The notes: a model not told the origin generated them from the sequence alone. Shown: positions 1 to 64,000, counted from the stretch's first letter. The stretch is DNA of 64,000 nucleotides from Candidatus Hydrogenedens sp. (GCA_049968235.1 JBMFRC010000007.1:98153-162152), one strand, 5' to 3'. Translations and numbers: made by a program.

Positions 1-59
1 GCCATAAATTTTTCTCCTACATTTAAGGTTAATATTTTGGAAAATATATATTATAGATA

Positions 60-90
60 TATTATATCTAATATATATATATATATGTCA
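60..90. repeat. (AT)n dinucleotide microsatellite in AT-rich intergenic DNA
   Basis: Run of atatatatatatatat read directly at about 70-88. No coding potential. Confidence 0.4.
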
Positions 91-685
91 AATCAAATAG
101 TTTGTCGATTGTGATTAGATACAAATGGTAGTAAACAAATATAAAGAGTAATGAAAGACCCTATCTGAAATTTTTCTTCCTGTAAGAATACATCTGCTAC
201 ATCTCAGACATATTGTTATTGGAGTAACTAATTTTCGCCCATTCATCATAGCAGTAGCGGACTTGTTTCCTTGTAGATATTTTTCAAACAAACACTACTT
301 TCTTGAATAATTGTTTTCCGGAAAATACAGAATTTCTCTTGCAAGGATATATAACATGCAGATTTGTTTGTGTCTAACTCAATAGATATTCTATGTGTTT
401 TATTCAAAATATCTTAATATACTGTCCTTTCATGTTTTTCCAAAAAATTCTTTAGAAATGAATTGCTTTCTCATTTGTATCGTCTTTTAAAGCAGTTAAT
501 ACAAATCACTCGAGAAAGGATACGACAATGAAAATGAAACACATGACAACAATCACTAAGGGACAAAATCATCCCAAAACGGCATCTTCCGCGGAAGCAC
601 TATTTTTCTATTTATATTTCACTGTAATTTCTGTTATGTTATCTGCTGCATTTGCCGAAAAAGGTAACTAATATCTATAACGGTT

Positions 686-33146: not shown

Positions 33147-34004
33147 CTATCTCTTTTTTTTGCAGTCGAAGTAGTGGTTGTTTTTGGGACCGAACCAGCC
33201 GACATTCCATGCACGATTAATAGCACCGTAGGCATTTTCTTCCGTTGCCCATTCCCAGCGTTCTGAGGTGATATGTCCATCACACCATAAGACATTTGCC
33301 CTGCCCCAATGTCGAAAATGTAATGTTGGCGACATATATACACCTTCCTGCCCTCGTGGATAATTTGCTGAAACCATCAATGGCGGTTCCACAAAACTAT
33401 ATTCGACAATATATCCATTCTGAGGCATTCCACTATCTGCAAACATAATCGTCTCTGAGGGATTTTCAATCATCCGCTCATGCATTCCTGATTTACATGC
33501 TTTTACCGGGTCATGTTCGATACTCAACATGGAACCGACATACGCCATGTTATATCCATAGCCGCCCGAACCCGATTCAAATGCGTTGGGAACCTCGCCT
33601 AAACTCCGATATTCAAAAAATTCCGAGCATTCTTTAATCCTTCCCTCCGGCACATATTCAAATAACGGTCCTTTGCGAAAATCGAACGGCGTATCTGGAT
33701 TTGGGGTATCTCGTCTTCCATGCCATCTACATCTACCTCCGAAATGGTCAGGTTCCGAACCCGGCAACAAAAAATCATACATATCCGAGGCGGCTGGAAC
33801 ATAATACCCATTATTCTCTGACGCATACATTGTATTAGCAAGGTACAATTGTCTCAAATTATTCACACATGAGACACTCCTTGCCTGTGCCCGTGCCCTT
33901 GATAATGCAGGTAGAAGTATAATTGCCAGAATGCTAATGATGGCAATAACAACCAGCAGTTCAATTAGAGTAAATCCCATATTTCTCTGCAAATTAAAAA
34001 ACAT
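33147..34004 (-). CDS. DUF1559 family protein with prepilin-type N-terminal cleavage/methylation domain
   Basis: 285 aa. [45 protein letters not shown]-terminal H-X9-DG motif ([13 protein letters not shown]). Its start overlaps the stop of the upstream surface-protein gene. Confidence 0.8.
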
Positions 34005-36108
34005 TCTGACCTCTTTTTACTTTCTCTTTCTTATCTGTGAGGAGAAGCAGTCCTATGACGACACATATTAGAGCCAAAAAAGCACTGCCTGCCATAGGAA
34101 GTGTTTTTACCTCAAACTCAAAATTCCGGCATATTAATTCATGAGAACGATATTCATCATCATAAATACATACCTCTACATAAGCAGTCCCACCTACAGA
34201 TATAGGTTTTACAACAAAATATATCCTCCCTTCAGAAATTGTAATTTGATGCCCCGGAACAGCACGCAATACATCCGATGTAACTATTGTTCCACCTGCA
34301 ATATCTACTGTAACCACACCCGTCTGTAATGGATTTCCGTAAATATCCTGAAATTCATCCGAAATAAAACTGAAATACTGCCCACCTTCTCCCATATTCC
34401 ATAAATTAGCAATATACGCTGGCGGTCCCGGTAAAATATCAATAAATATCTCTCCGTGTATCGTATTATCTATACTCTGAACCCAAAGTTTTCCCTTTCC
34501 TGCTACAGTTCCAGCCTCCACATTTATCTCCAATTTTCCATCCTTCACCGCAACCTGAAGACCGTCAATAATTACATCCTCATCCATATTCAAAATATCC
34601 AGCAAAAAAGTATTAATCGTAAACAGTTTCCCATCTGAAACTGGATTATTTTCCACATCCCTTATCTCATCACCCGTAACCCTTACAACATCTCCATATC
34701 CTACCACCTTTGTCTGCGATGGGTTCGCTGTTAAATGAATATGTCCCTGTCCCGGATTAATATCTCCTTCCCCTGCTAATGAAAATATCGCAAATACGCC
34801 CGGATACCGTGTTTGAAAAATTATCTTATTATTCACAAGGTCACGGTCAATAACATTTACATCTGAATTTACCCATTCTGTCCCATTCCAGCGATAAACA
34901 TTTATCTCCGCTTCATCCATCCCATGAATTTGCTCTGCATTGTATCGGACTCTCATCTTTGCCCATGCAATTTGAGCATTCTGAAAATCATTTACAGAGG
35001 AGGATAATTGAATGAACAAACCGCCCTTTACCAATCCATTTACTCCTACTGTTGACGGATCTGGAACGGATTGCAAATCCACACTACAATTATAAGGTCT
35101 TTCACCCGTTCTAATCCCGGATGAAACTAATGTTATACAAATGTAATCTTCTGGATTACATGCAGTCCCCAACTCCATACCCGCTGGACTACCTCCCCAA
35201 ATACCAGGTATTTCCAGAGGCAGAACGGTGCTTTCCGGTCGGTTCGGGTCTGTTCCGGAAACTTGTGTTTCATACTCATCAAGAACTCCATCCCCATCTG
35301 TATCTATATCTGGTGCCACATCGGCAAATGCCATAACTTCCGTTGTATAAAAACCATACACAGGGTCAAGAATATTGGGTATTGTTGAAATTCGTATAAA
35401 ATCGAATTCATCAAGATTTGCCGGGGTTCCCGATTCATCAACAGCCCATGCAATATCAAACGCATCACCGCCCCCGCTACCTATATCAATACCTACAGTC
35501 TTTGGATTATCCGGTCGCAAATAATTATCCTTATACGGTGGCATGGTCGGATTGGTATCCGCATAACCCCACACTACTTCCTGGTTCGTTGTCGTAATTA
35601 CATTTCCTGCAAATGGTGGTGTATTGTTTGTCAATCCCTGAGGGAAAACAATCCTATTTAAGTTTCTACTACCAGGAATAACATACCACACATCATCCGC
35701 CAACCCATTTTTATTCACATCCTTTGATATTTCAATTAGTCCGGGTTCTATAAACTTCCTGTGCATATCCCCTCCAATCCAAAAGGCATTGGAATAAATA
35801 ATACAATCCAGCCCCATCGGATTATGGGGGTCATCCTTTACAGGAGTATTAAACTTCACAATAATAAAACTTTCTTGAGGTGCTCCCGGTGTGCCGATTG
35901 AATAAATACCACTCATTGACGGTAAACTTACACCAAACCCTAATGGTGCTCCCAAAACATCGTGCGGATTGGTAAAGCCAACATTTTGATTTATCCCAAA
36001 ATAGGACACAACCTCATCTGCCCATGGGTCATCATCCGCATAAGAATATACGGAGATAATGCAACATAGGAGAATAATCAATAAATATCTTTTTTTTCTG
36101 TCAAACAT
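33994..36108 (-). CDS. Large secreted cell-surface protein with C-terminal membrane anchor (hypothetical), downstream of a cobalamin riboswitch
   Basis: 704 aa. Signal peptide [24 protein letters not shown]. Beta-rich Gly/Asp/Asn-rich body containing a Ca-binding-like [13 protein letters not shown]-terminus [35 protein letters not shown] is a motif, then a TM helix, then a basic tail. Confidence 0.7.
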
Positions 36109-36239: not shown

Positions 36240-36410
36240 CAAATCGGACAGCAACTGGTAGGTCTTCGGACTTGCAGGCACAAACCTACTTGGCTCGGCT
36301 TCCCAGAAATGCATCCAGTGCCATTACGAGCTGTTCGTTCCTGCTCACCGCTGCGGGGCAGTTCCGGCTTTGCACCGGATTCCCTCTTAGCACCCTTTAC
36401 ACTACTTTGG
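36240..36410 (-). promoter_or_regulatory. Cobalamin (AdoCbl) riboswitch
   Basis: The minus-strand RNA reads AGGGUGCUAAGAGGGAAUCCGGUGCAAAGCCGGAACUGCCCCGCAGCGGUGAGCAGG...AUGGCACUGG...GCAAGUCCGAAGACCUACCAGUUGC. This matches the conserved cobalamin-riboswitch core (cf. E. coli btuB leader GGGAAUCCAGUGCGAAUCUGGAGCUGACGCGCAGCGGUAAGG) and the B12 box (cf. AAGCCCGAAGACCUGCC). Local GC is far above the surroundings. Confidence 0.75.
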
Positions 36411-36555
36411 GTGACCAGTCACAGAGCGATTCAATTTTGTTTGTATTCACTTATAGAGTAATAACACAAAAAGATAAAAAATTTCAAATATTTCAGAACC
36501 AATATACCTCTATATGGTATATTAATATTATAGATGTCAAAAGGAAAAAACGAAT

Positions 36556-51926: not shown

Positions 51927-52002
51927 TGCCGGATCGCCTAATTGGTAGGGCACCTGACTCTGGATCAGGCTTGTCTAGGTTCGAGTCCTAGTCCGGCAGC
52001 CA
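51927..52002 (+). tRNA. tRNA-Gln (anticodon CTG)
   Basis: TGCCGGA acceptor stem pairing with TCCGGCA. Anticodon stem CCUGA/UCAGG with loop CUCUGGA, so the anticodon is CUG. TTCGAGT T-loop. CCA encoded. T-run follows. Confidence 0.8.
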
Positions 52003-52102
52003 TTTTTTTACCCAAAATTAGTCAAAACTTCGTAGAAACTTCTCACAAAAGTTTGTCTAAAGTAAAAAGGTTTTGCTAAAATATTTTTTTCTGCAATGAA
52101 GT

Positions 52103-52178
52103 GGCCCCTTCATCTAGCGGTTCAGGATGCAGGATTCTCAGTCCTGTCACACGGGTTCGAATCCCGTAGGGGCTGCCA
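52103..52178 (+). tRNA. tRNA-Glu (anticodon CTC)
   Basis: GGCCCCU UC AUCU AGCGGUUCA GGAU G CAGGA UUCUCAG UCCUG UCAC ACGGG UUCGAAU CCCGU AGGGGCU G CCA. The architecture closely parallels E. coli tRNA-Glu. Confidence 0.75.
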
Positions 52179-53826: not shown

Positions 53827-54063
53827 ATCTTCACATAATTACTGTCCCACCACTGCCCCCCCACTTGTATGGAACGAAGGTAAGTTATTAATTATTGAAG
53901 TTTGGCGTCTTTTACCATCATTTAATAATCATAGCAAAAATTATAGTAATATAAAGTAATCTGTCACTCCTTATAAAAGTATCCGGAATGGAAGTTAAAA
54001 TTTTTACTTACTTTTCTCTATGCTACAATAGGAACGGTTAAAAACTTTTAAGGAGAATTAGGT

Positions 54064-56292
54064 ATGCGAAAAATTTTCTTATTAACGCTTCTTTTTGTTT
54101 GTAGTTCTCTTTTCTGTCAGGCACAGCCTGCAAATTATCCCGACTGCTATGATGAGGTATGGGATACGCCAGGTCAGAATTCATCTGATTCAATGCCTAT
54201 TGGTAATGGAGACATAGGAGCAAATGTTTGGACTGAGGAGAATGGCGATATTGTCGCACTCATCAGTAAAACTGACGCATGGGATGATAACGGTCAGTTG
54301 TTAAAATTGGCTCGTGTCCGTTTCAAGATAACCCCATCCCTTACGGGGACAAATGCAAATTTCTCTCAACGATTACATCTACAACATGGCACGATTAAAA
54401 TACAGGGGAATGCTGGAAAAACAATGGCAATATTTCGTGTAGATGCAAATATGCCCGTGGCGGTTTTGAATGTGGAAAGTAAAGAAAATGTGGATTTACA
54501 GGTAATATTAGAAGTCTGGCGGACAACACCCCGCAATTATACTGAGGATGAAGTCAATCAGAGCAGTTTAATCCAGAAAATTGAAGAAGGTGTGGTGTAT
54601 CCGGATGTTGTGTTGGATAATCCACCTTTTTCAGGGCTATTGGTATATCATCAAAATAATCATTCTATCTGGGGTTACTCAATGGATTTGCAGGGCTTCG
54701 CTGAGTATAAAAATAAATTTACTGACCCCCTATTAAACCGAATCTTTGGTTGTGCGATTTGGTCAAATGATTTAAAAAAGGCAGATACCTTTACCTTAGA
54801 AGGTAAAGGTAAGAAAAATTACACGGTATATATTTTAGGGAAGACCTTGCATCCCTCAACCCCTGATGAGTGGTTGAATACCGTAGTAAAAGAGCGGGAA
54901 AAGGTGCTAAATGTCGTAGAGGATAAAGCATTTGAGCAGCATAAAAACTGGTGGCGAAACTTCTGGCAGAGAAGTTGGATTGTCGCAAGTGGTGATAAGG
55001 ATGCGGAGTGGATTAGCAAAGTATATGCCTTACAACGCTGGGTAACTGCATGCGGAAGTAGAGGTGCATATCCGGTTAAATTTAATGGTTCCATCTTTAC
55101 TGTGGAATGGCGAGAAGGTAATGAACTTAAGTCGGACCCGGACTATCGTCGTTGGGGAGGTGGCTACTGGTGGCAAAATACAAGATTGCCTTACTGGCCT
55201 TTGTTATCTTCCGGTGATTTTGATTTAATGAAGCCTGTATTCGATTTGTATATGAGTATAATGGAAATCAGTAAACTGCGTAGCAAAGTCTATTGGGGGT
55301 GTGAAGGTATTTATATGCCAGAAACTATATATCCCTGGGGGCTATTACGCAATCGCGATTATGGATTTGACCGAACCGGTTTGAAAGTAGGCGAAATTAC
55401 CAATCCATATATCCGCTGGATTTGGGCAAGTGGACTGGAATTAACTTTGATGATGTTGGACTACTATGATTTCACAAAGGATGACGTATTTCTAAAAGAA
55501 ACCTTGCTACCCTATGCCCGTGAGATTATCCGATTTTTTGAAACCCGTTTTCCTAAAAATGAAACCGGAATGCTCATTATACATCCGGCGCAAGCAGTAG
55601 AAACTTATCAGGAAGGTGTAACCGATGATACGCCCACTGTTTCTGGCTTGCATGCAGTTCTACCACGATTAATGGCACTGAACACTACCGAAATTACAAA
55701 TGAAGAAAAATCCCGTTGGGAACAATTATTAAAGTCTGTAGTGCCTGTACCGATTAAAGATGGTCGAATTCAGCCAGCACGCATATTTAACTCCAAACGC
55801 GGGAATGTAGAAAACCCCGAATTATATGCCGTGTTCCCATACCGCATCTTTGCCACCGGCAAACCCAACATAGACATAGCGATTGAAAGTTTCCAGAAAA
55901 GGTATGCAAAAGACTATCACGGCTGGCAACAGGATGCAATTCAGGCAAGTTTCTTAGGACTAACAGATGAAACAAAAAAAATGTTAATTACAAATGCCTA
56001 TCGTAAACACGAAGGTTCGCGTTTCCCCGCATTTTGGGGACCGAACTACGATTGGATACCCGACCAATGCCACGGTGGAAACATTATGAGCACATTACAA
56101 TTCATGCTATTGCAATGGGACAAAGATAACATTTATCTATTCCCCGCATGGGATAAAAACTGGAATGTAGACTTTAAACTCTATGCCCCCTATAACACCT
56201 CTATTCGTTGTATCTTACAGAAGGGGCAAATCCAAATTATAGATGTAACTCCACAGGAAAGAAAAAATAATATAACAATGTATCTGCAATAA
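54064..56292 (+). CDS. Large secreted hypothetical protein (possible glycosidase)
   Basis: 742 aa. Signal peptide MRKIFLLTLLFVCSSLFCQAQ. Family not recognised. Confidence 0.65.
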   Translation: MRKIFLLTLLFVCSSLFCQAQPANYPDCYDEVWDTPGQNSSDSMPIGNGDIGANVWTEENGDIVALISKTDAWDDNGQLLKLARVRFKITPSLTGTNANFSQRLHLQHGTIKIQGNAGKTMAIFRVDANMPVAVLNVESKENVDLQVILEVWRTTPRNYTEDEVNQSSLIQKIEEGVVYPDVVLDNPPFSGLLVYHQNNHSIWGYSMDLQGFAEYKNKFTDPLLNRIFGCAIWSNDLKKADTFTLEGKGKKNYTVYILGKTLHPSTPDEWLNTVVKEREKVLNVVEDKAFEQHKNWWRNFWQRSWIVASGDKDAEWISKVYALQRWVTACGSRGAYPVKFNGSIFTVEWREGNELKSDPDYRRWGGGYWWQNTRLPYWPLLSSGDFDLMKPVFDLYMSIMEISKLRSKVYWGCEGIYMPETIYPWGLLRNRDYGFDRTGLKVGEITNPYIRWIWASGLELTLMMLDYYDFTKDDVFLKETLLPYAREIIRFFETRFPKNETGMLIIHPAQAVETYQEGVTDDTPTVSGLHAVLPRLMALNTTEITNEEKSRWEQLLKSVVPVPIKDGRIQPARIFNSKRGNVENPELYAVFPYRIFATGKPNIDIAIESFQKRYAKDYHGWQQDAIQASFLGLTDETKKMLITNAYRKHEGSRFPAFWGPNYDWIPDQCHGGNIMSTLQFMLLQWDKDNIYLFPAWDKNWNVDFKLYAPYNTSIRCILQKGQIQIIDVTPQERKNNITMYLQ

Positions 56293-56354
56293 AGAAACCT
56301 TTTGCCTTTGTGTTAGTCAAAAGAAAAAAATAACGAACACAAGGACAAAATGAT

Positions 56355-57365
56355 ATGAATTTCAAAATCATTTTGTGGGGATTATTATCTATTTTCCCCA
56401 TAATACTTTTTGCCGATGAAAATACTCTCCCTAAAATGAATCAAATACAGGTTATTGGAACACACAACAGTTATCATAAACGCCCTCAATATCTTTACTG
56501 GGCAAAAGAATATGCGAAACAAACAGAAGACTGGGATTATGAACATCTACCTTTAGATATGCAATTAGAAAATGGTGTCCGTAGTTTTGAGTTAGATATT
56601 CACAATACACCTGAAGGTTGGAAAGTAATGCATGTGCCTAAGTTCGACGATACAAGTACATGCCCAAATTTACAGGAATGTCTGAGAGTTATCCGTGAAT
56701 GGTCAGACAAAAACCAAAAACATGTGCCTATTAGTGTCTTACTTGAATGGAAGTCGGAAGGACCTGTTATTGATAAACGCATAACAGTTCCCAAAAAACA
56801 AGACGTTGAACGAATTGAAGAGGACATACTTGCGGTATGGGACAAAACTAGAATCATCACTCCGGATACTATTCGTGGCGATTTCAAAACACTGGAAGAA
56901 GCAATATTAAAAAAAGGTTGGCTTACTCTGGAACAATCCAGAGGAAAAATCATGTTTATCCTCCATAACAGAAGAAAATTAAGGGATTTCTATCTGGAAG
57001 GGCATCCTAATTTAGAGGGTCGATTAATGTTTGTCAATTCATATCCCGGTGAACCTTACTCTGCAACCATAATAATTGATAACCCTTTTCATGAAGAAAT
57101 ACCCGTATGGGTTCAAAAAGGATACTTTATTCGTGTTTTCGGTGCTAACCCCAAATCGCAGTCTCCCGACAAAATTAGATTAAAAGACGATAAAGCATTT
57201 TCATGTGGTGCTCAGGTTATCTCAACAAACAATCCGCCCGGCGAACCTTACCCCCAAACAGGTTACTTTTTAGTATTCCCCGATGGTTCCACAATTCGCT
57301 GGAATCCTATTAATGGTCCCTCAAATATTGATATATCCCCTGAATCAAAAACCTCCCAAAAATGA
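56355..57365 (+). CDS. Secreted PI-PLC X-domain-like phosphodiesterase
   Basis: 336 aa. Signal peptide. VIGTHNSYH and GVRSFELDIH match the catalytic X-domain signature of Ca-dependent phosphatidylinositol-specific phospholipase C-like enzymes. Confidence 0.6.
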   Translation: MNFKIILWGLLSIFPIILFADENTLPKMNQIQVIGTHNSYHKRPQYLYWAKEYAKQTEDWDYEHLPLDMQLENGVRSFELDIHNTPEGWKVMHVPKFDDTSTCPNLQECLRVIREWSDKNQKHVPISVLLEWKSEGPVIDKRITVPKKQDVERIEEDILAVWDKTRIITPDTIRGDFKTLEEAILKKGWLTLEQSRGKIMFILHNRRKLRDFYLEGHPNLEGRLMFVNSYPGEPYSATIIIDNPFHEEIPVWVQKGYFIRVFGANPKSQSPDKIRLKDDKAFSCGAQVISTNNPPGEPYPQTGYFLVFPDGSTIRWNPINGPSNIDISPESKTSQK

Positions 57366-57628
57366 ATTTCAGAACAACTGATTTAAGTCAATTCTATTCG
57401 AAACCTCCAAATAAAGGGAGTTAAAGTATTTTTAAGACAGGTTATACATAAGATTATGAGATAAAATCAGATTAATATTTGAAATGAAGGAAGAAAACAA
57501 TAAGAGGTTTATTTCTTTTCATTTTTTTCTTCACTGCCGTTCTTATTTCATTTATTATAAGGTCTCATTTAATAAAAAAATGTCTTATGTGTTTAAAAAA
57601 TTATTTTTTGAAAAAAATTAAAAAAGAC

Positions 57629-57661
57629 TTGACAAATACTTTTTTTTTTTTTTTGTATAAT
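57629..57661 (+). promoter_or_regulatory. Consensus sigma70-like promoter with a homopolymeric 15-T spacer
   Basis: Perfect -35 TTGACA (57629-57634) and perfect -10 TATAAT (57656-57661), separated by a 21-nt spacer that is mostly T15 (57640-57654). A GAGGAGG RBS precedes the ATG at 57743. Confidence 0.5.
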
Positions 57662-57742
57662 AAATTTAATGATAATTAAGTAGTAAGAAGTAGTATAAGT
57701 GACAATTGAATAATTAAACATCCAAAAGAGGAGGCCAAGGGC

Positions 57743-59284
57743 ATGAAAAAGGTTATATGCTTTACAGTAGTAGTAATCACTTTGTGTTTGGCGGTTTCCG
57801 TTCCGGTTTATAGCGTGGATATTACTTTTCTGAATAAGGTTCGTTCCGAGGAAAAGCAGGCATACGCGGAGATAAGCAATGGACAGGTAAAAAATGGATT
57901 GTGTCGGCTGGCTCGTTTGTTTAGGGATGCACCTCTGGATGATATAAGTTGTATAGAGCCGTTATTAGGTCCTTTTCAGTTATTTTGTTATGAGTTATCA
58001 ACTCATAATGAGTTAATAATGCAGAGTTTGGTAGATAGAAACGTTGTTGTTAATTCTGGACGGGAAGAGCCTGTATTACAACCGAATATGTATCCATCGG
58101 ACCGATTATTAATGGCGGGAGCGTATGCATTAAGTGAACCGATGGACACATTTTCCCACGCACATTTATACCACTATATTCCGCAGTTAATAGGAGATAA
58201 AGAGATCTTGCTGAAAGCAGTAGGAGTAGGATTGGGGCTGGTAATCTTTCCAGAAGGTGGAGAGGCACTGGGGATACCAGGGGATTATTATCGGTCATTA
58301 AGTATTCCTTATATGCGTAAACAAATGAGTGTGGAGATACAGCGGTTATTTGTGGAGGTTTATGTGCTTATGCGTATAGATGAGTTAAGTGGTGCTATAA
58401 AAGAGATGGGGAGTTATGGAAATGAATTGAGTAAGCGGGATGACAAGACCTTGTTGTTGGATAAATTAGAAGAATGGGGAATAACAAGGGAAGAGGTAGT
58501 AAGTATATCACCGGGATTGAATTGTATTTCATTAGGTCTGCCAAGTCTGGATGTAAAAGATATAAATTGGGATAGTTTTTTATTGTGGGCGGATATGCTG
58601 AGGAAAACGAGTGATTCGCGGGTGGGGTATATGCTATTGTTTATTTTACGTTATTCTCCATACTTTGGAGAAGAGGTGGAGAATAAGGTTAGAGGGGTAT
58701 TGGAGGATATATGTAAGGAGGTTGGTTCGACAGGTAGAGTGGAGGGGATATATGCTCGTTGTATATTAAATGACTGGGATGCAAGGTCACATCGCGTAAA
58801 AGACTTATATATGCGGACAAAAGAATTACTTCAGACAGGGGTATTACCAGGGGTATATAGTTTCCGGAGTTTGTATAAAGAGCGAGAACGAGCGATAAAT
58901 CTGGCATATAATTATTTTGTTAAATATTGTTGGTATGAATACGGAGTGGAGATAGGTGATGCAATGAGAAGTAGAGACTGGATGAGTAAAGAGTTATTTA
59001 AAAGGGAACCTTTGTATATGAGTATGCGTCGGATAAGGGATGCAACGAATGTATTGAAGTATAAGAAGAACATGGAAGAATTACTTAATTATTACAAGGA
59101 TATAGCGGAGCATACACCTAATCCAGAATTAAAAGAAGAGATGTTGTCCCTTATCAACTCTCCACTTAAGGAAATAGTTCCGCGATTAAAAAATAGTTCG
59201 TCTCCACCCGTAGGGGATATATTATTAGATTGGGCGAGAGAAAGAACAGTGGGGATGTCGGAGAAAAGAGAAAAAGGAAGATAA
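57743..59284 (+). CDS. Secreted hypothetical protein, first gene of a compositionally distinct island
   Basis: 513 aa. Signal peptide MKKVICFTVVVITLCLAVSVPVYS. GAGGAGG RBS. G/T-rich codon usage (AGG, GGG, GTT, TTG) unlike the rest of the window. Confidence 0.65.
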   Translation: MKKVICFTVVVITLCLAVSVPVYSVDITFLNKVRSEEKQAYAEISNGQVKNGLCRLARLFRDAPLDDISCIEPLLGPFQLFCYELSTHNELIMQSLVDRNVVVNSGREEPVLQPNMYPSDRLLMAGAYALSEPMDTFSHAHLYHYIPQLIGDKEILLKAVGVGLGLVIFPEGGEALGIPGDYYRSLSIPYMRKQMSVEIQRLFVEVYVLMRIDELSGAIKEMGSYGNELSKRDDKTLLLDKLEEWGITREEVVSISPGLNCISLGLPSLDVKDINWDSFLLWADMLRKTSDSRVGYMLLFILRYSPYFGEEVENKVRGVLEDICKEVGSTGRVEGIYARCILNDWDARSHRVKDLYMRTKELLQTGVLPGVYSFRSLYKERERAINLAYNYFVKYCWYEYGVEIGDAMRSRDWMSKELFKREPLYMSMRRIRDATNVLKYKKNMEELLNYYKDIAEHTPNPELKEEMLSLINSPLKEIVPRLKNSSSPPVGDILLDWARERTVGMSEKREKGR

Positions 59285-59321
59285 ATATGACTCTGTATAA
59301 TAAATTGAGGAGGAATAAAAT

Positions 59322-61252
59322 ATGAATAAGGAGACAAAGAGACAAAAAAACAAAGAAAATGTAAAGTATGGGTCAAAATATTAATAGTAACAATGGGAAT
59401 AGGAATAATAATCGGTATGAGTGGATGTCCTTCAGAAGTGTGTAAGTGCGGAAATAATGAGCGAACAATAACAACCGAGGTAATTCCACCCGGAGCAGGT
59501 AGCATCTCACTGGAACCGGAGAAAGAATCTTATACTCGGGGCGAGAATGTATTAGTTACATTTACTCCGGAAACTAATTACAAGATGTATATATGGATTG
59601 ATACAAGCAGTTTATTTCATCTTTGTCCATCAAATACAATACTTATGAGGGTAACAGATAATATTCAACTGACGGCGTTACCGTGGTGGACAAAGAGGAA
59701 AGTGCATGTGTTTTGGGATACGTCTTTAGTGGATGTAGAAGTTCCAGAAGATGCAGTAGTACAGAGTCCGGGTTCTTTCGAAGTAGAACGGGAGGTGGAT
59801 AGCCTGGCAACCTTTTCGGGACAGATAAAAGAAAATTTACCACCTTTACCACCTGGTCAAGTTCGGAAGATGCTATGGGATTTGGTATCAATACCAACAC
59901 ATGTAGGACAGAGATGGGGTGAAACGAGTTGTTCGATAGTAGTAGAGGGTCCGTCCTCACCGACAGCGGAGCCAATATACCTGTATGCAACAGCCCAAGC
60001 ATGGGATGAGAGCAGTCCTGTATATAGTATGAATATCTTTCCTGCTTCAATAGTAAATGGGGAAAATTTTGAAGGAAGACTATACTGTAACGGTTGCGGA
60101 TGTGAGTGGTGTACTTGTTTGTCAGCGTTCCCATATGAGTGGACGAATAGTGGGGTTTGTAGGAAGTTTATGTTTTCAATGCGTCCGTCTCCGTATGAAG
60201 CATTTGTGTTCTGGCTGGGAATGCAGGGCTATAATCTATCGCAAAATGCGGAATATACATTTGAGAGTCCAGGTGGAGGTAGTATGAACTTTTATGGACT
60301 TTATGCCCCTCGAATACATCTGTCGCCGTCTGTCGAGGGTCAGGGTGTGATTCACATAGAGTCAGGAGGGTATACAGAGCGATGGGGATATAACCCAATG
60401 CCATTTTGTATTGGAGGAGAATGTTCAGGATGGGTACAGGAGGATATATCTAATTGTGTCAATATCTTAGGCAATAAAGTGGTATTAAAAGCAGAACCGT
60501 GTAACACTTCATGGATATTTGACCATTGGGAATATTTGGACGCGGGTGAAGGTGAGGGAAATTCTGGTAGTTGGGTAGAAATACCGGATGTTGGAGATAG
60601 ACTGAATACCTATATGAACTGGTGGGGTTATCTGGATGAAACTCCGGGGCATCTCCATGTCCCCTGGGGAGAAACCAATTTCCAGGTCAAAGCCGTTTTT
60701 AGAAGATATGGTGTGTTTACGGTACAACCAAATGACCCTCAAATTTGGTGGCATACAATTATATACAATTTTTTTGAGGAAAAGGGTTATAATTCAATAA
60801 TGGTTTTTAGTTTTAATAATTTTTTTGCTATTAGTAATTTTAAAGCTAGTTTACATAATTTGCCTAAATACGATGTTTTTCTATATAGTGGGCACCATGC
60901 TGGTGGTTGTTTGGGGGATGTATCATGGCAAGATATTCTGATTAATAATCACGGGCATGGTTATTTGCTTGTATATCTTTTAGCATGTAATACGGCAAAT
61001 ATAATAATTTATAATGGTCAAGAGATTGATTTAGGGGAAAGATGGAAAGGTGCTTTTAATGCTTCATGTTTTATAGGATTTGAACAAATACTCTCCGAAC
61101 TAGCGGCACAATCTTTCGACACAATGTTTTACCATTTCTTAAGATATTATTTTCCACATTCACCTCGAATGGCTGCTGAATTAGCATCATGGACGACAAC
61201 AGTAGATGTGCGTATTTTAGGAGATGTCTATTTGCCGTTTTGTGAAGGTTGA
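59322..61252 (+). CDS. Cys-rich lipoprotein with C-terminal caspase-like (clan CD) His/Cys dyad motif; start region carries an apparent -1 frameshift in an A7 run
   Basis: The ATG at 59322 has a perfect GAGGAGG SD 9 nt upstream but stops after 20 codons. The main ORF (59393..61252) is in frame -1. Adding one A to a7 (59344-59350) gives MNKETKRQKKQRKCKVWVKILIVTMGIGIIIGMSGC, a textbook lipoprotein signal. The C-terminus holds DVFLYSGHHAGG...(31 aa)...YLLVYLLACNTAN. Confidence 0.6.
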
Positions 61253-61293
61253 TTTATAATGAAGATAAAGCAATCGATACAGGATTGAAAGTT

Positions 61294-62088
61294 ATGTTGA
61301 GATTGGGTGTTATCAGTTTATTTTTAATGGGCTTGGGTTGTGTCAATGAAACTTATAAGTATAACTCTCCGTATGTGATATGGGAATGGAGATTGGGTCC
61401 GCTAAAAGAATTTAAGGAAGGAATCTTTCAAAAGGAGATTGTTGAATTTGCAAATCTTTTTATAAAAGAGTTTTCGTTTGAAAAAGAGGATATATCGCCA
61501 TTTTTATATAGTAAATACTTTGCAGATGGGGATATATATATAACTTTAATATATGTCAGGGATGAGCAAAAAAGAAAACAATGGCAATCTTTACTGGTTG
61601 AATATAGAAAAATAGATATACCTATGTATACGGATTACATAGTTACAATTTCTTTGTTAACCAATCGAGTGGTTCAATTTTATAACGGGGGGGTTCTTAC
61701 TTCATATAGTGGAAACTTGCATTTTTCGAACTCATACATGGACCGTAGATTGAAGATGGACAACGAAAATAATGAGGGTACAATGTGTGTTGAGAAGATA
61801 TCGGAATATATAGGTATCCCTGAAGAAAAAAGAACAAGTGTAGAAATATTTAAAAGTCCATTAGGATTCTTGTATTTTAAGAGTAAGGAGAAAAGTTTTA
61901 ATATTTTGTCAGGACTTGACAGGTATAAAAGTATAAACGATTTTTATTTCGGTATAGTTAGGACCTTATATTTTGACCTGGGTTCCCTTGATAATGAAGA
62001 CAGACCTATATCGGCACCTCTTTTTGAGGGCGTATTAATTTGTATAAAAGATAAGTGGTATCCACTTTTTTATATTTATAATTTTTAA
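61294..62088 (+). CDS. Hypothetical lipoprotein/exported protein
   Basis: The ORF from TTG 61249 overlaps the stop of the previous gene by 4 nt. The likely start is ATG 61294, giving MLRLGVISLFLMGLGC (signal plus Cys). No known domain. Confidence 0.5.
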   Translation: MLRLGVISLFLMGLGCVNETYKYNSPYVIWEWRLGPLKEFKEGIFQKEIVEFANLFIKEFSFEKEDISPFLYSKYFADGDIYITLIYVRDEQKRKQWQSLLVEYRKIDIPMYTDYIVTISLLTNRVVQFYNGGVLTSYSGNLHFSNSYMDRRLKMDNENNEGTMCVEKISEYIGIPEEKRTSVEIFKSPLGFLYFKSKEKSFNILSGLDRYKSINDFYFGIVRTLYFDLGSLDNEDRPISAPLFEGVLICIKDKWYPLFYIYNF

Positions 62089-62140
62089 GTGTGCATGCTT
62101 TTAAGAAGATTGCTAATTATAATATGAAAAAAGGAAGTCA

Positions 62141-62986
62141 ATGATGCTTCTGAATCTTGTTAATTTATTATTAATATTGAGTGGAAATATGAGTGAGGAG
62201 CAAACCTACAAAGAAATAGCACGAAATTTTATCAATGATACAATTCATTATGAGGTAAAAGATATAACAATCGAAAAAACTCCTCTACGTTCTAATTTCC
62301 TTTTATATGACGAGCCAGTAATTACATTAAAAGCAGATAATGCTTACTTATTAAGTATTGGTGAAAAGAGCAAGATCGTATTAAGTTGTATCGGACTCTC
62401 AATTGAAGGAATAGAAGGAGAAAAAATTGATACTGTAAATGATGCTTTTAAGCAACTGTATGAGGTTTTCAAGTATTATAATCTTCCCTTGCAGATTGAA
62501 GAATGTTCTGTAAAGGAGTCTATCGATAAATATATTTTTCAAAAAGAACTTTTATACAACAATATTATATGTAGAAATTCAGGGATACGTGTAGAGATAC
62601 TAAAGAAAAACGGAACTACAATGTCTATACTTTACAAACCTTGTATTGAGCCTTTGAATAAGTTTCCTCCTAAGATTAATGAAAAAGAATTGGAGGAAGT
62701 TCTAAATAATTGGTTAAAAGAACAAACATATTTCCAAAAATATCCAGCAAAGATTTTAGGGGAAGAAAAACTCCGCATTGTAATTGCTCCTAAACTTAAC
62801 CAATACGACCCTAACTCATATAAGAATGTATTGATACAGAGAAGTGCTATAGAAAGGTATTATGCATACGAAATGTCTATCGTATGGGAGGAAAAAGGAA
62901 AAAAATGGTTTGGATGGGTTTGGATTGATGGGAATAGTAAAAAAGTAATAGGGGGATTTCCTAATTATAGTCAAGAAAAGGAATGA
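62141..62986 (+). CDS. Hypothetical exported protein
   Basis: 281 aa. AAGGAAG RBS. N-terminal hydrophobic MMLLNLVNLLLILSG. Confidence 0.55.
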   Translation: MMLLNLVNLLLILSGNMSEEQTYKEIARNFINDTIHYEVKDITIEKTPLRSNFLLYDEPVITLKADNAYLLSIGEKSKIVLSCIGLSIEGIEGEKIDTVNDAFKQLYEVFKYYNLPLQIEECSVKESIDKYIFQKELLYNNIICRNSGIRVEILKKNGTTMSILYKPCIEPLNKFPPKINEKELEEVLNNWLKEQTYFQKYPAKILGEEKLRIVIAPKLNQYDPNSYKNVLIQRSAIERYYAYEMSIVWEEKGKKWFGWVWIDGNSKKVIGGFPNYSQEKE

Positions 62987-63792
62987 AAATGGACAGGATA
63001 AAGCACTATAAACTATTTTTATTATTTCTGCTTATATTATCTTTGATTGGCGTATACTTTGTCGTGCGAAAGAATATTTCTGAGAACATAAAACTGAGAG
63101 GATACATTAGAGTTAAGGATACAGATATAGAAAATATGGGTGTAAGAAAAGAAACCTTTAAAGAGATAGTTACTTTGGTCAGAGAAATCACAAACACCAA
63201 AGATTTTTACAAGATGATATCTATGCCTATGAAATTAGACCTTAATGAACCCTCAGAAAGAACATATCATGCAAAAGGAAAAGACTGTATTAAGATTTAT
63301 TTTTTTATTCTTCCACCAAAAAACAACGGATATTATTCCCTATCTGAGGAACCATATATAGAAATACTCTTTGATAAAGATATCGGAAAAATTATTTACA
63401 TGTGTGATTATACAGATTTTTATCGAAAAATAAGTTTATCTGAAGATTCTAATCGAGAAGATGAAAATGGCTACAAGACCCTGATAAATCTTTTACTAAA
63501 CTACTATGGATATAGTCAAGAGCCTCTTGAATACTTTCAAGTAGAAACTCGAAAAATGGCAGGAAAGGTTAAAATTACTATGAAGTTGAGAGAAAATAGT
63601 GAGGAAGGTAATAATGCAAAATTAACGAAGACATTTTATATTATTTTTAATTCAAGATTTAATAAAATACAATATTTTGATGTATTTACATTAAATTATG
63701 GGAACACAGTTTTATGGTCTTACAGTCCAGATGCAAAATACTATGAAAATAGTCCCCTCATGTTACAAATAAAATCTCTTATAGACAATTAG
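62983..63792 (+). CDS. Hypothetical membrane-anchored protein
   Basis: 269 aa. Overlaps the previous stop by 4 nt (ATGA coupling). N-terminal TM LFLLFLLILSLIGVYFVV. Confidence 0.55.
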   Translation: MKMDRIKHYKLFLLFLLILSLIGVYFVVRKNISENIKLRGYIRVKDTDIENMGVRKETFKEIVTLVREITNTKDFYKMISMPMKLDLNEPSERTYHAKGKDCIKIYFFILPPKNNGYYSLSEEPYIEILFDKDIGKIIYMCDYTDFYRKISLSEDSNREDENGYKTLINLLLNYYGYSQEPLEYFQVETRKMAGKVKITMKLRENSEEGNNAKLTKTFYIIFNSRFNKIQYFDVFTLNYGNTVLWSYSPDAKYYENSPLMLQIKSLIDN

Positions 63793-63926
63793 CCCTAATT
63801 TTTATTATAAAGAAATATTCGTTGATAATGTAAAATTACAAGTGGAATTAAATAACACGATACAGAGGTTTTACCACCGGGAATACTTCTATGTAAGCAA
63901 ATAAGAAAAAGAGACGAGTAGTTGTA

Positions 63927-64000
63927 TGAAAGTGCCGAATGTTGGAGATAGACTGAATACCTATATGAACTGGTGAGGTTATCTGGATGAAACTCCGGGG
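63927..64000 (+). repeat. Partial near-identical copy of an internal segment of gene 59322..61252 (truncated by window end)
   Basis: 63935-64000 matches 60586-60651 (ccgGatgttggagatagactgaatacctatatgaactggtgGggttatctggatgaaactccgggg) with 2 mismatches. One mismatch converts TGG (Trp) to TGA within an ORF starting at ATG 63927 (MKVPNVGDRLNTYMNW*). Confidence 0.5.

What the first reader, a model, noticed from the sequence alone, without database searches (positions are those of the whole stretch)
57629..57661. Perfect -35/-10 promoter whose spacer is a 15-T homopolymer: candidate slipped-strand phase-variation switch for the island
TTGACA and TATAAT are both perfect hexamers. The spacer is 21 nt (optimum 17) and consists almost entirely of T15 (57640-57654). 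Changes in homopolymer length would tune or abolish promoter activity. Poly-C/poly-T spacer switches in Neisseria, Haemophilus and Bordetella surface-protein promoters work this way. A roughly 11-T variant would give the ideal 17-nt spacing. The operon behind it encodes surface-exposed lipoproteins, the classic cargo of phase-variable promoters. Three genes in this window also show single-base gaps in homopolymer runs, so this tract's length is likely to be variable or mis-called.
Basis: partly seen in the sequence, partly recalled or inferred. Interest (0 to 1): 0.6.

Follow-up and report, generated by a model that had tools for sequence, protein, structure and literature searches.

The report
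Conserved promoter with variable poly-T spacer
A real, deeply conserved promoter in front of a secreted-protein operon of an uncultured bacterium (Candidatus Hydrogenedens) has a run of T's between its two recognition boxes, and the run's length differs between lineages (8 to 15 T). Here it is the longest seen, which should weaken or silence the operon, but nothing yet shows that it flips back and forth within a population.

Summary
In detail: TTGACA (57629-34), a 21-nt spacer (AATAC + T15 + G) and TATAAT (57656-61) lie 81 nt upstream of a 513-aa secreted-protein gene.

It is not a chance match. The same cassette precedes the orthologous or paralogous operon in 10 Hydrogenedentota lineages. 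The cassette is an A-tract, TTGACA, AATAC, a T run, G, a -10-like hexamer, a purine-rich leader and GGAGG. Its 27-nt core is 75-100% identical to the window's (85-100% in six of seven lineages), while the coding sequence is only 53-67% identical. Within the six cassettes that keep AATAC and G, the T run is the only length variable. It ranges from T7 to T15, giving spacers of 15, 16, 16, 17, 17, 17, 17, 18, 19 and 21 nt.

The window's T15 is the extreme value. It is not a mis-call, because two further MAG assemblies also carry T15. One pair of 99.4%-identical strains differs by T9 versus T10.

So this is a slippage-prone tuning element of a known kind, comparable to Helicobacter and Neisseria promoter-spacer repeats. 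Here it sits in a predicted weak or off setting. High-frequency reversible switching is untested, because no reads were available. Gene 2, a lipoprotein, also carries a reproducible frameshift in an A7 run.

The parts
57611..57625 (+). A7-TT-A6 tracts immediately upstream of the -35 box (UP-element-like). The A6-8 run next to the -35 is conserved in all orthologous cassettes.
   Evidence: Alignment A2 has invariant A columns just before TTGACA, and conservation stops abruptly upstream of the A tract. The UP-element function is inferred from general knowledge.
57629..57634 (+). -35 hexamer TTGACA
   Evidence: Invariant in all 10 lineages.
57635..57655 (+). 21-nt spacer: AATAC + T15 + G
   Evidence: AATAC and G are conserved. 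Within the cassettes that keep them, only the T run changes length.
57640..57654 (+). T15 homopolymer, the variable element
   Evidence: T15 also in L001 and L082. Other lineages carry T7 to T12.
57656..57661 (+). -10 hexamer TATAAT
   Evidence: Orthologues have TATAAT, TACAAT, CATAAT, TATGAT, TATATT, TGAAAT and TAAGAT. All keep A at position 2 and T at position 6.
57668..57742 (+). Predicted 5' leader of about 75 nt. It is purine-rich and unstructured. Conserved motifs are AAGTAGTAAGAAGTAGTAT (57678-57696) and ACAATTGAA (57702-57710), with the Shine-Dalgarno GGAGG at 57730-57734. The transcription start near 57668 is inferred.
   Evidence: no consensus structure; z-score +0.5.
57743..59284 (+). 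Gene 1: 513-aa secreted all-alpha protein of unknown function. It founds a small Hydrogenedentota-centred family.
   Evidence: 35 representatives in 1.84 billion; all-helical model, pLDDT 66; no significant PDB fold match; no Pfam or NCBIfam hit.
59322..59384 (+). Orphaned start of gene 2. ATG 59322 sits behind GAGGAGG (59307-13) and opens MNKETKRQKNKENVKYGSKY*. One extra A in the A7 run at 59344-59350 would fuse it in frame to gene 2 and restore a full lipoprotein signal peptide.
   Evidence: compared with the intact orthologue N-termini. The same A7 is in sibling-MAG contig L083.
59393..61252 (+). Gene 2: 619-aa ORF, an InlB B-repeat-like lipoprotein family. The lipobox is GMSGC, with the Cys codon at 59426-28. 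In this genome it is cut off from its signal-peptide n-region.
   Evidence: (Flg_new_2, E 4.7e-5). The structure model was unusable (pLDDT 35).
61249..63792 (+). Genes 3-5 (279, 281 and 269 aa). They are small proteins with hydrophobic N-termini and no known family. The 281-aa type recurs in the related operons.

Best explanation
This is the sigma-70-type promoter of a conserved operon of exported proteins in Candidatus Hydrogenedens. The operon encodes a secreted helical protein, a lipoprotein and small membrane or secreted proteins.

The promoter has strong-promoter features: an A-tract upstream, a perfect -35, a near-perfect -10, an unstructured leader and a strong ribosome-binding site. 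Its spacer is built around an uninterrupted T run.

The run is prone to slippage, so its length drifts by single bases. Because it sits between the two boxes, each change alters their spacing and therefore promoter strength. Across lineages the spacing clusters on the 17-nt optimum.

In this genome the run has expanded to T15, giving 21 nt. That should make the promoter weak or off, and this state is the population consensus in three assemblies.

Shown: the anatomy, the conservation, the length variation between lineages and strains, and the reproducibility of T15.

Inferred: that RNA polymerase uses these boxes, that the start site is near 57668, that 21 nt lowers activity, and that slippage is the mutational mechanism.
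For: - The cassette is present upstream of the same gene family in 10 lineages, including a paralogue whose protein is only 25% identical.
- The 27-nt core, with the T run removed, is 75-100% identical to the window's (85-100% in six of seven lineages). The coding sequence is 53-67% identical, and 100 nt further upstream about 50%.
- Conservation starts sharply at the A tract.
- All -10 variants keep A2 and T6.
- Spacers are 15, 16, 16, 17, 17, 17, 17, 18, 19 and 21 nt, with T runs of 7-15.
- Two lineages with short or interrupted T runs keep 16-17 nt by using other bases (L100, L008). This argues that spacing is what selection acts on.
- T9 versus T10 separates strains that are 99.44% identical. 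It is one of only 2-3 indels in 3.6 kb.
- In 75 kb of related loci, the only A/T run of 9 or more is this spacer.
- tRNA genes in the window have sigma-70-like boxes at 18 nt, so the organism plausibly uses canonical spacing.
- Published work shows that repeats between -35 and -10 change sigma-factor docking and expression (PMC4081817 section 12; PMC5320596 on fetA and porA).
Against: - No transcription data exist for any member of this phylum.
- The consensus tract length is identical in every set of replicate assemblies (T15 x3, T12 x6, T11 x2, T10 x3). The run is therefore not visibly unstable at the consensus level.
- A promoter fixed in an 'off' setting in three samples, while gene 1 stays intact, is slightly awkward. 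Either the operon is dispensable or decaying here, or the promoter tolerates 21 nt.
- T-rich 17-nt spacers with the same TTGACAAATAC-T9 sequence occur in unrelated tRNA and phage promoters. In the phage family T9 was the only length found among 17 contigs. A T-rich spacer by itself therefore does not imply variability.
- Sampling of the cassette by DNA pattern required at least T9, which biases the length distribution upward.
Confidence: 0.55

Rival explanations
1. True contingency locus. The T run is kept pure by selection for mutability. It switches reversibly at high frequency within populations, turning the operon on and off. Switching may be combinatorial with paralogous operons and with the A7 run in gene 2.
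For: - The pure T run is retained in 8 of 10 lineages despite deep protein divergence.
- A one-base difference separates near-identical strains.
- Ca. H. terephthalaticus has two paralogous operons, each with its own T-tract promoter (T12 and T11).
- A second homopolymer lesion (A7) lies in the signal-peptide region of gene 2 of the same operon.
- Some cargo is exported or lipidated.
- There is precedent in H. pylori, where nine loci have T or A tracts of 9-15 between -35 and -10 (PMC4081817, Table 2).
Against: - No read-level data are available.
- All replicate assemblies within a lineage agree, including two single-cell genome assemblies and bulk metagenomes that all give T12.
- T15 is found in three MAGs, one of which is distinguishable by SNPs.
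- The A7 frameshift is likewise identical in two MAGs.
- The whole core promoter is conserved, so purity of the T run may reflect ordinary purifying selection.
Confidence: 0.3
2. Decay, not regulation. The operon is being lost in this lineage. The T15 expansion, the gene 2 frameshift and the stop codon in the downstream gene-2-like fragment are independent inactivating lesions that have become fixed.
For: - The gene 2 signal peptide is disconnected by a -1 frameshift in A7, identical in a second MAG.
- Window 63918-64000 repeats part of gene 2, with TGA where the sibling MAG has TGG.
- Another lineage (L079-81) has an in-frame TAG in gene 1 and a frameshifted gene 2 signal peptide, so members of this family do decay.
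- The 21-nt spacer is the family outlier.
Against: - Gene 1 (513 aa) and genes 3-5 are intact and of orthologue length.
- The promoter hexamers remain perfect, and the core is 100% identical to that of Ca. H. terephthalaticus. This is unexpected for a neutral, decaying region.
Confidence: 0.25
3. The T run is only a structural or strength element of a strong promoter, and the promoter works at 21 nt. This could be through unusual T-tract helical geometry, an alternative sigma factor, or an activator that compensates. On this view length differences are inconsequential drift.
For: - Identical TTGACAAATAC-T9 promoters with 17-nt spacers occur before tRNA genes in Campylobacterota and Clostridia and in a phage family.
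- T15 is stably fixed in three MAGs while gene 1 is intact.
Against: - The spacer distribution is centred on 17 nt, and lineages with shorter T runs compensate with other bases. This indicates that spacing matters.
- The spacer contains no dyad symmetry of the MerR-operator type. The only inverted repeats are low-complexity A-run/T-run pairs.
- From general knowledge of sigma-70 promoters, 20-21 nt spacers are nearly inactive without a twisting activator.
Confidence: 0.12
4. Artefact or other element. Either the tract length is an assembly error, or T15 is the U-tail of an intrinsic terminator for the upstream PI-PLC gene.
For: - Homopolymers are error-prone in some sequencing technologies.
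- The second-longest T run in the window (T9, 39217-25) is a terminator tail.
Against: - Three assemblies agree on T15.
- No G+C-rich hairpin precedes the run, and the terminator scan finds nothing there.
- The tract lies inside a conserved promoter cassette whose upstream neighbours differ in every genome.
Confidence: 0.03

Closest known systems
Helicobacter pylori promoters with T or A tracts between -35 and -10 (hopZ 14A, babB 14A, hopG 13T, HP_1105 15T and others; PMC4081817, Table 2), and the sabA T-tract 'rheostat'
   Same: Long A/T homopolymers (9-16 nt) lie in or next to core promoters of envelope-protein genes. The promoter sequence is highly conserved apart from tract length. A-rich UP-like sequences lie upstream. 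Tract length is proposed to tune RNA polymerase docking through slipped-strand mispairing.
   Different: In sabA the tract lies upstream of the -35 and acts through helical phasing of UP-like elements, giving a periodic output. Here it lies inside the spacer, so a single optimum is expected. H. pylori tracts vary widely between strains and within hosts (T5-T22). Here all replicates within a lineage are identical, and variation is seen only between lineages or near-identical strains. The organism is a free-living or bioreactor member of an uncultured phylum, not a host-restricted pathogen.
Neisseria transcriptional phase variation: fetA poly-C and porA poly-G between -10 and -35 (PMC5320596, citing Carson 2000 and van der Ende 1995)
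   Same: A homopolymer forms the promoter spacer, and its length changes the spacing and facing of the boxes. Expression therefore becomes graded or on/off. The cargo is outer-membrane or lipoprotein genes.
   Different: The Neisseria tracts are G/C, with experimentally measured switching. This is a T tract with no expression or switching data. The window allele lies 4 nt beyond the optimum, further than typical one- or two-unit Neisseria shifts.
Mycoplasma hyorhinis vlp lipoprotein genes with a poly-A tract in the promoter spacer (own knowledge: Citti and Wise 1995; not checked in the library)
   Same: An A/T homopolymer lies between -35 and -10. Each member of a paralogous surface-lipoprotein gene family has its own copy of a highly conserved promoter cassette, which would allow combinatorial on/off states. 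Ca. H. terephthalaticus likewise has two paralogous operons, each with the cassette.
   Different: The vlp genes are single genes and the on state is A17. The operon here has five or more genes with unknown functions. Combinatorial switching is speculative.
MerR-family long-spacer promoters (19-20 bp)
   Same: The distance between good -35 and -10 boxes is over-long.
   Different: MerR promoters carry a dyad-symmetric operator in the spacer and a cognate regulator gene nearby. This spacer is a homopolymer without dyad symmetry. The orthologous cassettes have normal 16-18 nt spacers.

Membership tests
Sigma-70-type (housekeeping) promoter | -35 TTGACA-like and -10 TATAAT-like hexamers, conserved among orthologues | tested here: met
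   Both hexamers are perfect. TTGACA is invariant, and the -10 keeps A2/T6 in 10 lineages.
Sigma-70-type (housekeeping) promoter | Spacer of 17 +/- 1 nt | tested here: not met
   The spacer is 21 nt in the window. It is 16-18 nt in 7 of the 9 other alleles.
Sigma-70-type (housekeeping) promoter | Transcription start 6-9 nt downstream of the -10 | not testable with these tools
   No transcript data. A leader of about 75 nt ending in GGAGG is consistent.
Promoter-spacer simple-sequence-repeat phase variation (Neisseria porA/fetA, H. pylori -35/-10 tracts, M. hyorhinis vlp) | Homopolymer or short repeat located between -35 and -10 | tested here: met
   T15 lies at 57640-57654, inside the spacer at 57635-57655.
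Promoter-spacer simple-sequence-repeat phase variation (Neisseria porA/fetA, H. pylori -35/-10 tracts, M. hyorhinis vlp) | Repeat length polymorphic among related strains while the flanks are conserved | tested here: met
   T7-T15 across lineages, with a 75-100% identical core. T9 versus T10 at 99.44% identity.
Promoter-spacer simple-sequence-repeat phase variation (Neisseria porA/fetA, H. pylori -35/-10 tracts, M. hyorhinis vlp) | Length heterogeneity within a population, with reversible high-frequency switching | tested here: inconclusive
   Only consensus assemblies were available, and all replicates agree (T15 x3, T12 x6, T11 x2, T10 x3).
Promoter-spacer simple-sequence-repeat phase variation (Neisseria porA/fetA, H. 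pylori -35/-10 tracts, M. hyorhinis vlp) | Expression level depends on repeat length | not testable with these tools
   Inferred from spacer-length rules. Needs reporter fusions or metatranscriptomes.
Promoter-spacer simple-sequence-repeat phase variation (Neisseria porA/fetA, H. pylori -35/-10 tracts, M. hyorhinis vlp) | Cargo is a surface or envelope component | tested here: inconclusive
   Gene 1 has a cleavable signal peptide followed by a conserved mature N-terminus. The gene 2 family has the conserved lipobox (S/G)MSGC or IIGC. Surface exposure and function are unknown.
MerR-type activator-dependent long-spacer promoter | Dyad-symmetric operator within a 19-20 bp spacer | tested here: not met
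   Only low-complexity A-run/T-run complementarity was found, with no spacer-internal dyad.
Intrinsic terminator | G+C-rich hairpin immediately followed by a T run | tested here: not met
   No terminator-like site at 57600-57660. The fold of 57590-57665 is no better than shuffles.
Cis-regulatory RNA leader (riboswitch or attenuator) | Conserved secondary structure with covariation, or an Rfam match | tested here: not met
   No Rfam hit in the region. RNAalifold predicts zero pairs. The single-sequence z-score is +0.5.

The most novel reading that the evidence does not exclude
A phylum-level 'contingency cassette'. On this reading, Hydrogenedentota keep a hypermutable T-tract promoter, maintained by selection across lineages whose proteins have diverged to 25% identity, in front of each copy of a paralogous envelope-protein operon. 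Together with homopolymer frameshifts in the gene 2 signal peptide (A7 here, G4 in L079), this would give combinatorial on/off variation of cell-surface composition in free-living, non-pathogenic bacteria, for example against phages or grazers. It would resemble the Mycoplasma vlp system but would have arisen independently.
Probability: 0.2. Interest if true: 0.65.

Novelty: new member of a known kind. Interest (0 to 1): 0.42.

Why it matters
Promoter-spacer repeats are textbook switches in a handful of host-adapted pathogens, but they are hardly documented in uncultured environmental phyla. This cassette gives a first concrete picture of a strong promoter in Hydrogenedentota. It also provides a natural allelic series, with spacers of 15-21 nt on an otherwise near-identical core, that could be tested directly.

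If read data show length heterogeneity, stochastic surface variation would extend to a free-living or bioreactor lineage. If they do not, the case is a clean example of a homopolymer expansion silencing an operon. In either case the operon it controls is a family of exported proteins, apparently centred on this phylum, with no known function.

Tried and rejected
- **Window-specific metagenome scan.** A scan with the window's own flanks around a variable gap found nothing. Re-running with the generic motif TTGACAAATAC+T9 worked. Most of those hits are unrelated sequences, including tRNA promoters, a phage family and several unrelated repeated contig families.
- **Profile search of the 5.8-billion-protein index.** A family alignment returned fewer hits than the single sequence, so it gave no new loci.
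- **Fold of gene 1.** The model is all-helical with pLDDT 66 and has only non-significant solenoid matches in the PDB. No function can be assigned.
- **Fold of gene 2.** pLDDT 35 is unusable. The sequence search of the PDB was empty. My impression that its C-terminus (SGHHAGG...LLACNT) resembles a clan-CD cysteine peptidase dyad is untested.
- **Leader RNA structure.** None found.
- **Phage-borne cassette.** The viral scan found only an unrelated phage promoter.
- **Frameshift screen.** Four homopolymer junctions between large adjacent ORFs turned out to be overlaps of unrelated genes by Pfam. The exception is gene 2, which I found by comparing N-termini.
- **Exact-protein look-ups.** Look-ups of gene 1 and gene 2 failed. 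The cluster listing shows that the window's gene 1 equals NCBI protein MGC8738379.1, on a 162-kb MAG contig.

Full report
**Observation**

One search shows TTGACA at 57629-57634. It is followed by AATAC, T15 (57640-57654) and G, a 21-nt spacer at 57635-57655. TATAAT is at 57656-57661. The Shine-Dalgarno GGAGG (57730-34) and the ATG of a 513-codon ORF (57743) follow 81 nt after the -10.

The tool's own promoter scan does not list the site only because it accepts spacers of 16-18 nt.

On statistics alone the hexamer pair is unremarkable. There are two perfect TTGACA-N15-21-TATAAT matches in the window against 0.29 expected, and 5 of 100 shuffles reach two. The homopolymer is a clear outlier. The next longest T run is T9, which is the tail of the terminator after tRNA-Met. 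No other A/T run exceeds 9.

**Source and reproducibility**

The gene 1 product is identical to an NCBI protein of a Candidatus Hydrogenedens sp. MAG on a 162-kb contig. Two other MAG assemblies carry the same intergenic region with T15:
- L001 (GCA_049969095.1) is 100% identical over 3078 bp.
- L082 (GCA_049971155.1) differs by 4 SNPs in 3666 bp.

The suggestion that the length is mis-called is therefore rejected.

**The cassette is conserved**

Homologues of the 513-aa protein are rare. The word-indexed search found 6. A full profile scan of 1.84 billion representatives found 35.

Every homologue whose upstream DNA I could fetch has the same arrangement about 70-85 nt before its ATG. In order, the arrangement is:
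- an A6-8 tract
- TTGACA
- AATAC, or a close variant
- a T run
- G
- a -10-like hexamer
- a purine-rich leader with the motifs AAGTAAGTAGT and ACAATTGAA
- GGAGG

A genome-wide motif scan also found a second copy in Ca. H. terephthalaticus, in front of a paralogous operon. Its first protein is only 25% identical to the window's.

With the T run removed, the 27-nt core is 75-100% identical to the window's (85-100% in six of seven lineages). The leader is 56-74% identical and the coding sequence 53-67%. The 100 nt upstream is about 50% identical, which is the baseline for this composition.

Conservation begins abruptly at the A tract. The genes upstream differ in every genome. The promoter therefore travels with the operon and is under stronger constraint than the proteins it drives.

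**The T run is the variable part**

The alleles are listed below.

| Loci | Spacer content | Spacer (nt) | -10 hexamer |
|---|---|---|---|
| window, L001, L082 | AATAC + T15 + G | 21 | TATAAT |
| Ca. H. terephthalaticus locus 1 (L003-6, L019, L073) | AATAC + T12 + G | 18 | TATAAT |
| Ca. H. terephthalaticus locus 2 (L010, L064) | AATAC + T11 + G | 17 | TATATT |
| L002 | AATAC + T11 + G | 17 | TACAAT |
| L079-81 | AAGCAC + T10 + G | 17 | TGAAAT |
| L100 | AATATATA + T8 + G | 17 | TAAGAT |
| L050, L055 | AATAC + T10 + G | 16 | TATAAT |
| L008 | AACAC + TTCT7 + G | 16 | TATGAT |
| L024 | AATAC + T9 + G | 15 | TATAAT |
| L007 | AATAC + T11 + GTG | 19 | CATAAT |

The distribution centres on 17 nt, and the window is the extreme. 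Lineages with shorter or interrupted T runs make up the distance with other bases. This argues that the spacing itself is under selection.

L024 and L050/L055 are 99.44% identical over 3.6 kb. The T9/T10 difference is one of only two or three indels between them. In 75 kb of related loci the only A/T run of 9 or more is this spacer.

There is an ascertainment caveat. The DNA-pattern scans required at least T9 and an exact TTGACAAATAC. Shorter alleles could therefore be found only through protein homology.

**Evidence that limits the switch interpretation**

Wherever a lineage is represented by several assemblies, the consensus length is the same. This holds for T15 (three assemblies), T12 (six, including two single-cell genome assemblies and bulk metagenomes), T11 (two) and T10 (three).

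Consensus sequences cannot reveal minority alleles, so this does not exclude phase variation. It does show that the tract does not churn visibly, and that T15 is the dominant state in three samples.

T-rich spacers are also a generic strong-promoter design. The identical TTGACAAATAC-T9 string, completed to a 17-nt spacer, precedes tRNA genes in Campylobacterota and Clostridia MAGs. It also occurs in a phage family, where T9 was the only length among the 17 contigs found. Alleles below T9 would have escaped that scan.

**Other readings excluded**

- No terminator hairpin precedes the run.
- The spacer holds no dyad of the MerR-operator kind. Only low-complexity A-run/T-run complementarity flanks the -35.
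- The leader has no Rfam match, no consensus structure and no excess stability.
- tRNA-Met and tRNA-Glu in the window have sigma-70-like boxes at 18 nt. This is consistent with canonical promoter geometry in this organism.

**Cargo**

The conserved operon core is the 513-aa family, a family of about 610-640 aa, and one or more proteins of about 300 aa.

Gene 1 has a cleavable signal peptide followed by a conserved mature N-terminus, (L/V)D(T/A)(A/V/S/I)(F/Y)L(Q/N/K)K(V/I). It is predicted to be all-helical, with no Pfam, NCBIfam or PDB-fold match.

The gene 2 family carries an InlB B-repeat-like segment and a conserved lipobox ((S/G)MSGC, or IIGC in the paralogue). It is therefore a probable lipoprotein.

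In the window, gene 2 is separated from its own start. ATG 59322, behind GAGGAGG, opens a 20-codon ORF. One extra A in the A7 run at 59344-59350 would yield MNKETKRQKKQRKCKVWVKILIVTMGIGIIIGMSGC, a complete lipoprotein signal peptide like those of the orthologues. The same A7 is present in a sibling MAG contig that differs from the window by 9 SNPs. The frameshift is therefore real.

Genes 3-5 have hydrophobic N-termini and no known family.

**Mechanism**

The best-supported reading is a strong sigma-70-type promoter whose T-run spacer changes length by slippage and so tunes or abolishes transcription. This genome sits at a predicted weak or off setting.

Three things cannot be decided without reads or transcripts:
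- whether this is an adaptive, rapidly reversible switch
- whether it is a slow evolutionary tuning knob
- whether it is one of several inactivating lesions in an operon that is being lost here. Supporting lesions are the gene 2 frameshift and a stop codon in the downstream gene-2-like fragment. The L079 lineage also shows clear decay.

**Comparison with known systems**

The closest systems are:
- H. pylori promoters with T or A tracts of 9-15 nt between -35 and -10, together with the sabA T-tract rheostat (PMC4081817, section 12 and Table 2)
- Neisseria fetA and porA spacer homopolymers (PMC5320596)
- from my own knowledge, the Mycoplasma hyorhinis vlp poly-A promoters

The position and the between-strain polymorphism match these. 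Switching, within-population heterogeneity and dependence of expression on length remain untested. I therefore class this as a new member of a known kind, in a phylum where nothing of the sort has been described. Two literature searches on Hydrogenedentes found no paper on promoters or repeat-mediated variation in the phylum.

Noticed in passing
window 91..61, minus strand (gene start at about 5..3, running off the left edge): A second perfect TTGACA/TATAAT pair has a simple-sequence-repeat spacer: TTGACA-TATATATATATATATTAGA-TATAAT. The spacer is 19 nt and contains (TA)7. It is followed by GGAG and an ATG. It resembles the TA-repeat spacer of the Haemophilus hif promoter (own knowledge).
   Followed up: partly
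window 59322-59393 (A7 run 59344-59350): Gene 2 of the operon is cut off from its start codon and signal-peptide n-region by a -1 frameshift in an A7 run. A8 would restore a full lipoprotein precursor. The same A7 is in sibling MAG contig L083, so this is not an assembly error. It could be a second phase-variable site, a transcriptional-slippage site, or a fixed lesion.
   Followed up: partly
L079/L080/L081 (three SRA-run assemblies), positions 1260-1270 and 1900-1965: In this related lineage gene 1 has an in-frame TAG where orthologues have a sense codon. The gene 2 signal peptide is frameshifted at a G4 run, and G5 would restore it. The operon looks pseudogenised or recoded there.
   Followed up: partly
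window 63918-64000 versus 60567-60694: The last 83 bases of the window repeat part of the C-terminal region of gene 2 at about 92% identity. They contain TGA where the sibling MAG (L083) has TGG. In L083 this opens a further 234-aa gene followed by more small genes. The gene cluster therefore continues beyond the window and contains internal paralogy.
   Followed up: partly
window about 54000-64000: GC skew on the + strand flips from consistently negative (-0.03 to -0.30) to positive (up to +0.35) from about 54 kb onward. tRNA-Gln and tRNA-Glu lie just upstream (51927-52178). This fits a compositionally distinct segment, but island status was not tested.
   Followed up: no
window 55927-59004, 54743-58408 and 59224-64000 (extents of L001, L082, L083): Sibling MAG contigs break inside or just after gene 1 (at window positions 58408, and 59004/59224). 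SNP density differs on the two sides: 0 in 3078 bp upstream against 9 in 4777 bp downstream, for the same sibling MAG. This hints at strain heterogeneity or paralogy within the operon.
   Followed up: no
window 36240-36434, minus strand: A cobalamin riboswitch (Rfam RF00174, 113 bits) lies upstream of the minus-strand gene at 33994-36108.
   Followed up: no
L032, L047, L049, L057, L072, L074, L075 (metagenome contigs Ga0307xxx/Ga0325xxx): An unrelated contig family shares TTGACAAATAC followed by T10, T11 or T14 and then CGTTATGGGG. It shows that T-run length variation of this size is readily visible between assemblies when it exists.
   Followed up: no
L084-L099, L059, L061 (IMG/VR and metagenome contigs): A phage family carries TTGACA-AATAC-T9-GAT-TATAAT, an exact 17-nt spacer. 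T9 is the only length among 17 contigs despite flanking SNPs. It serves as a natural control for a T-rich spacer that does not vary.
   Followed up: partly
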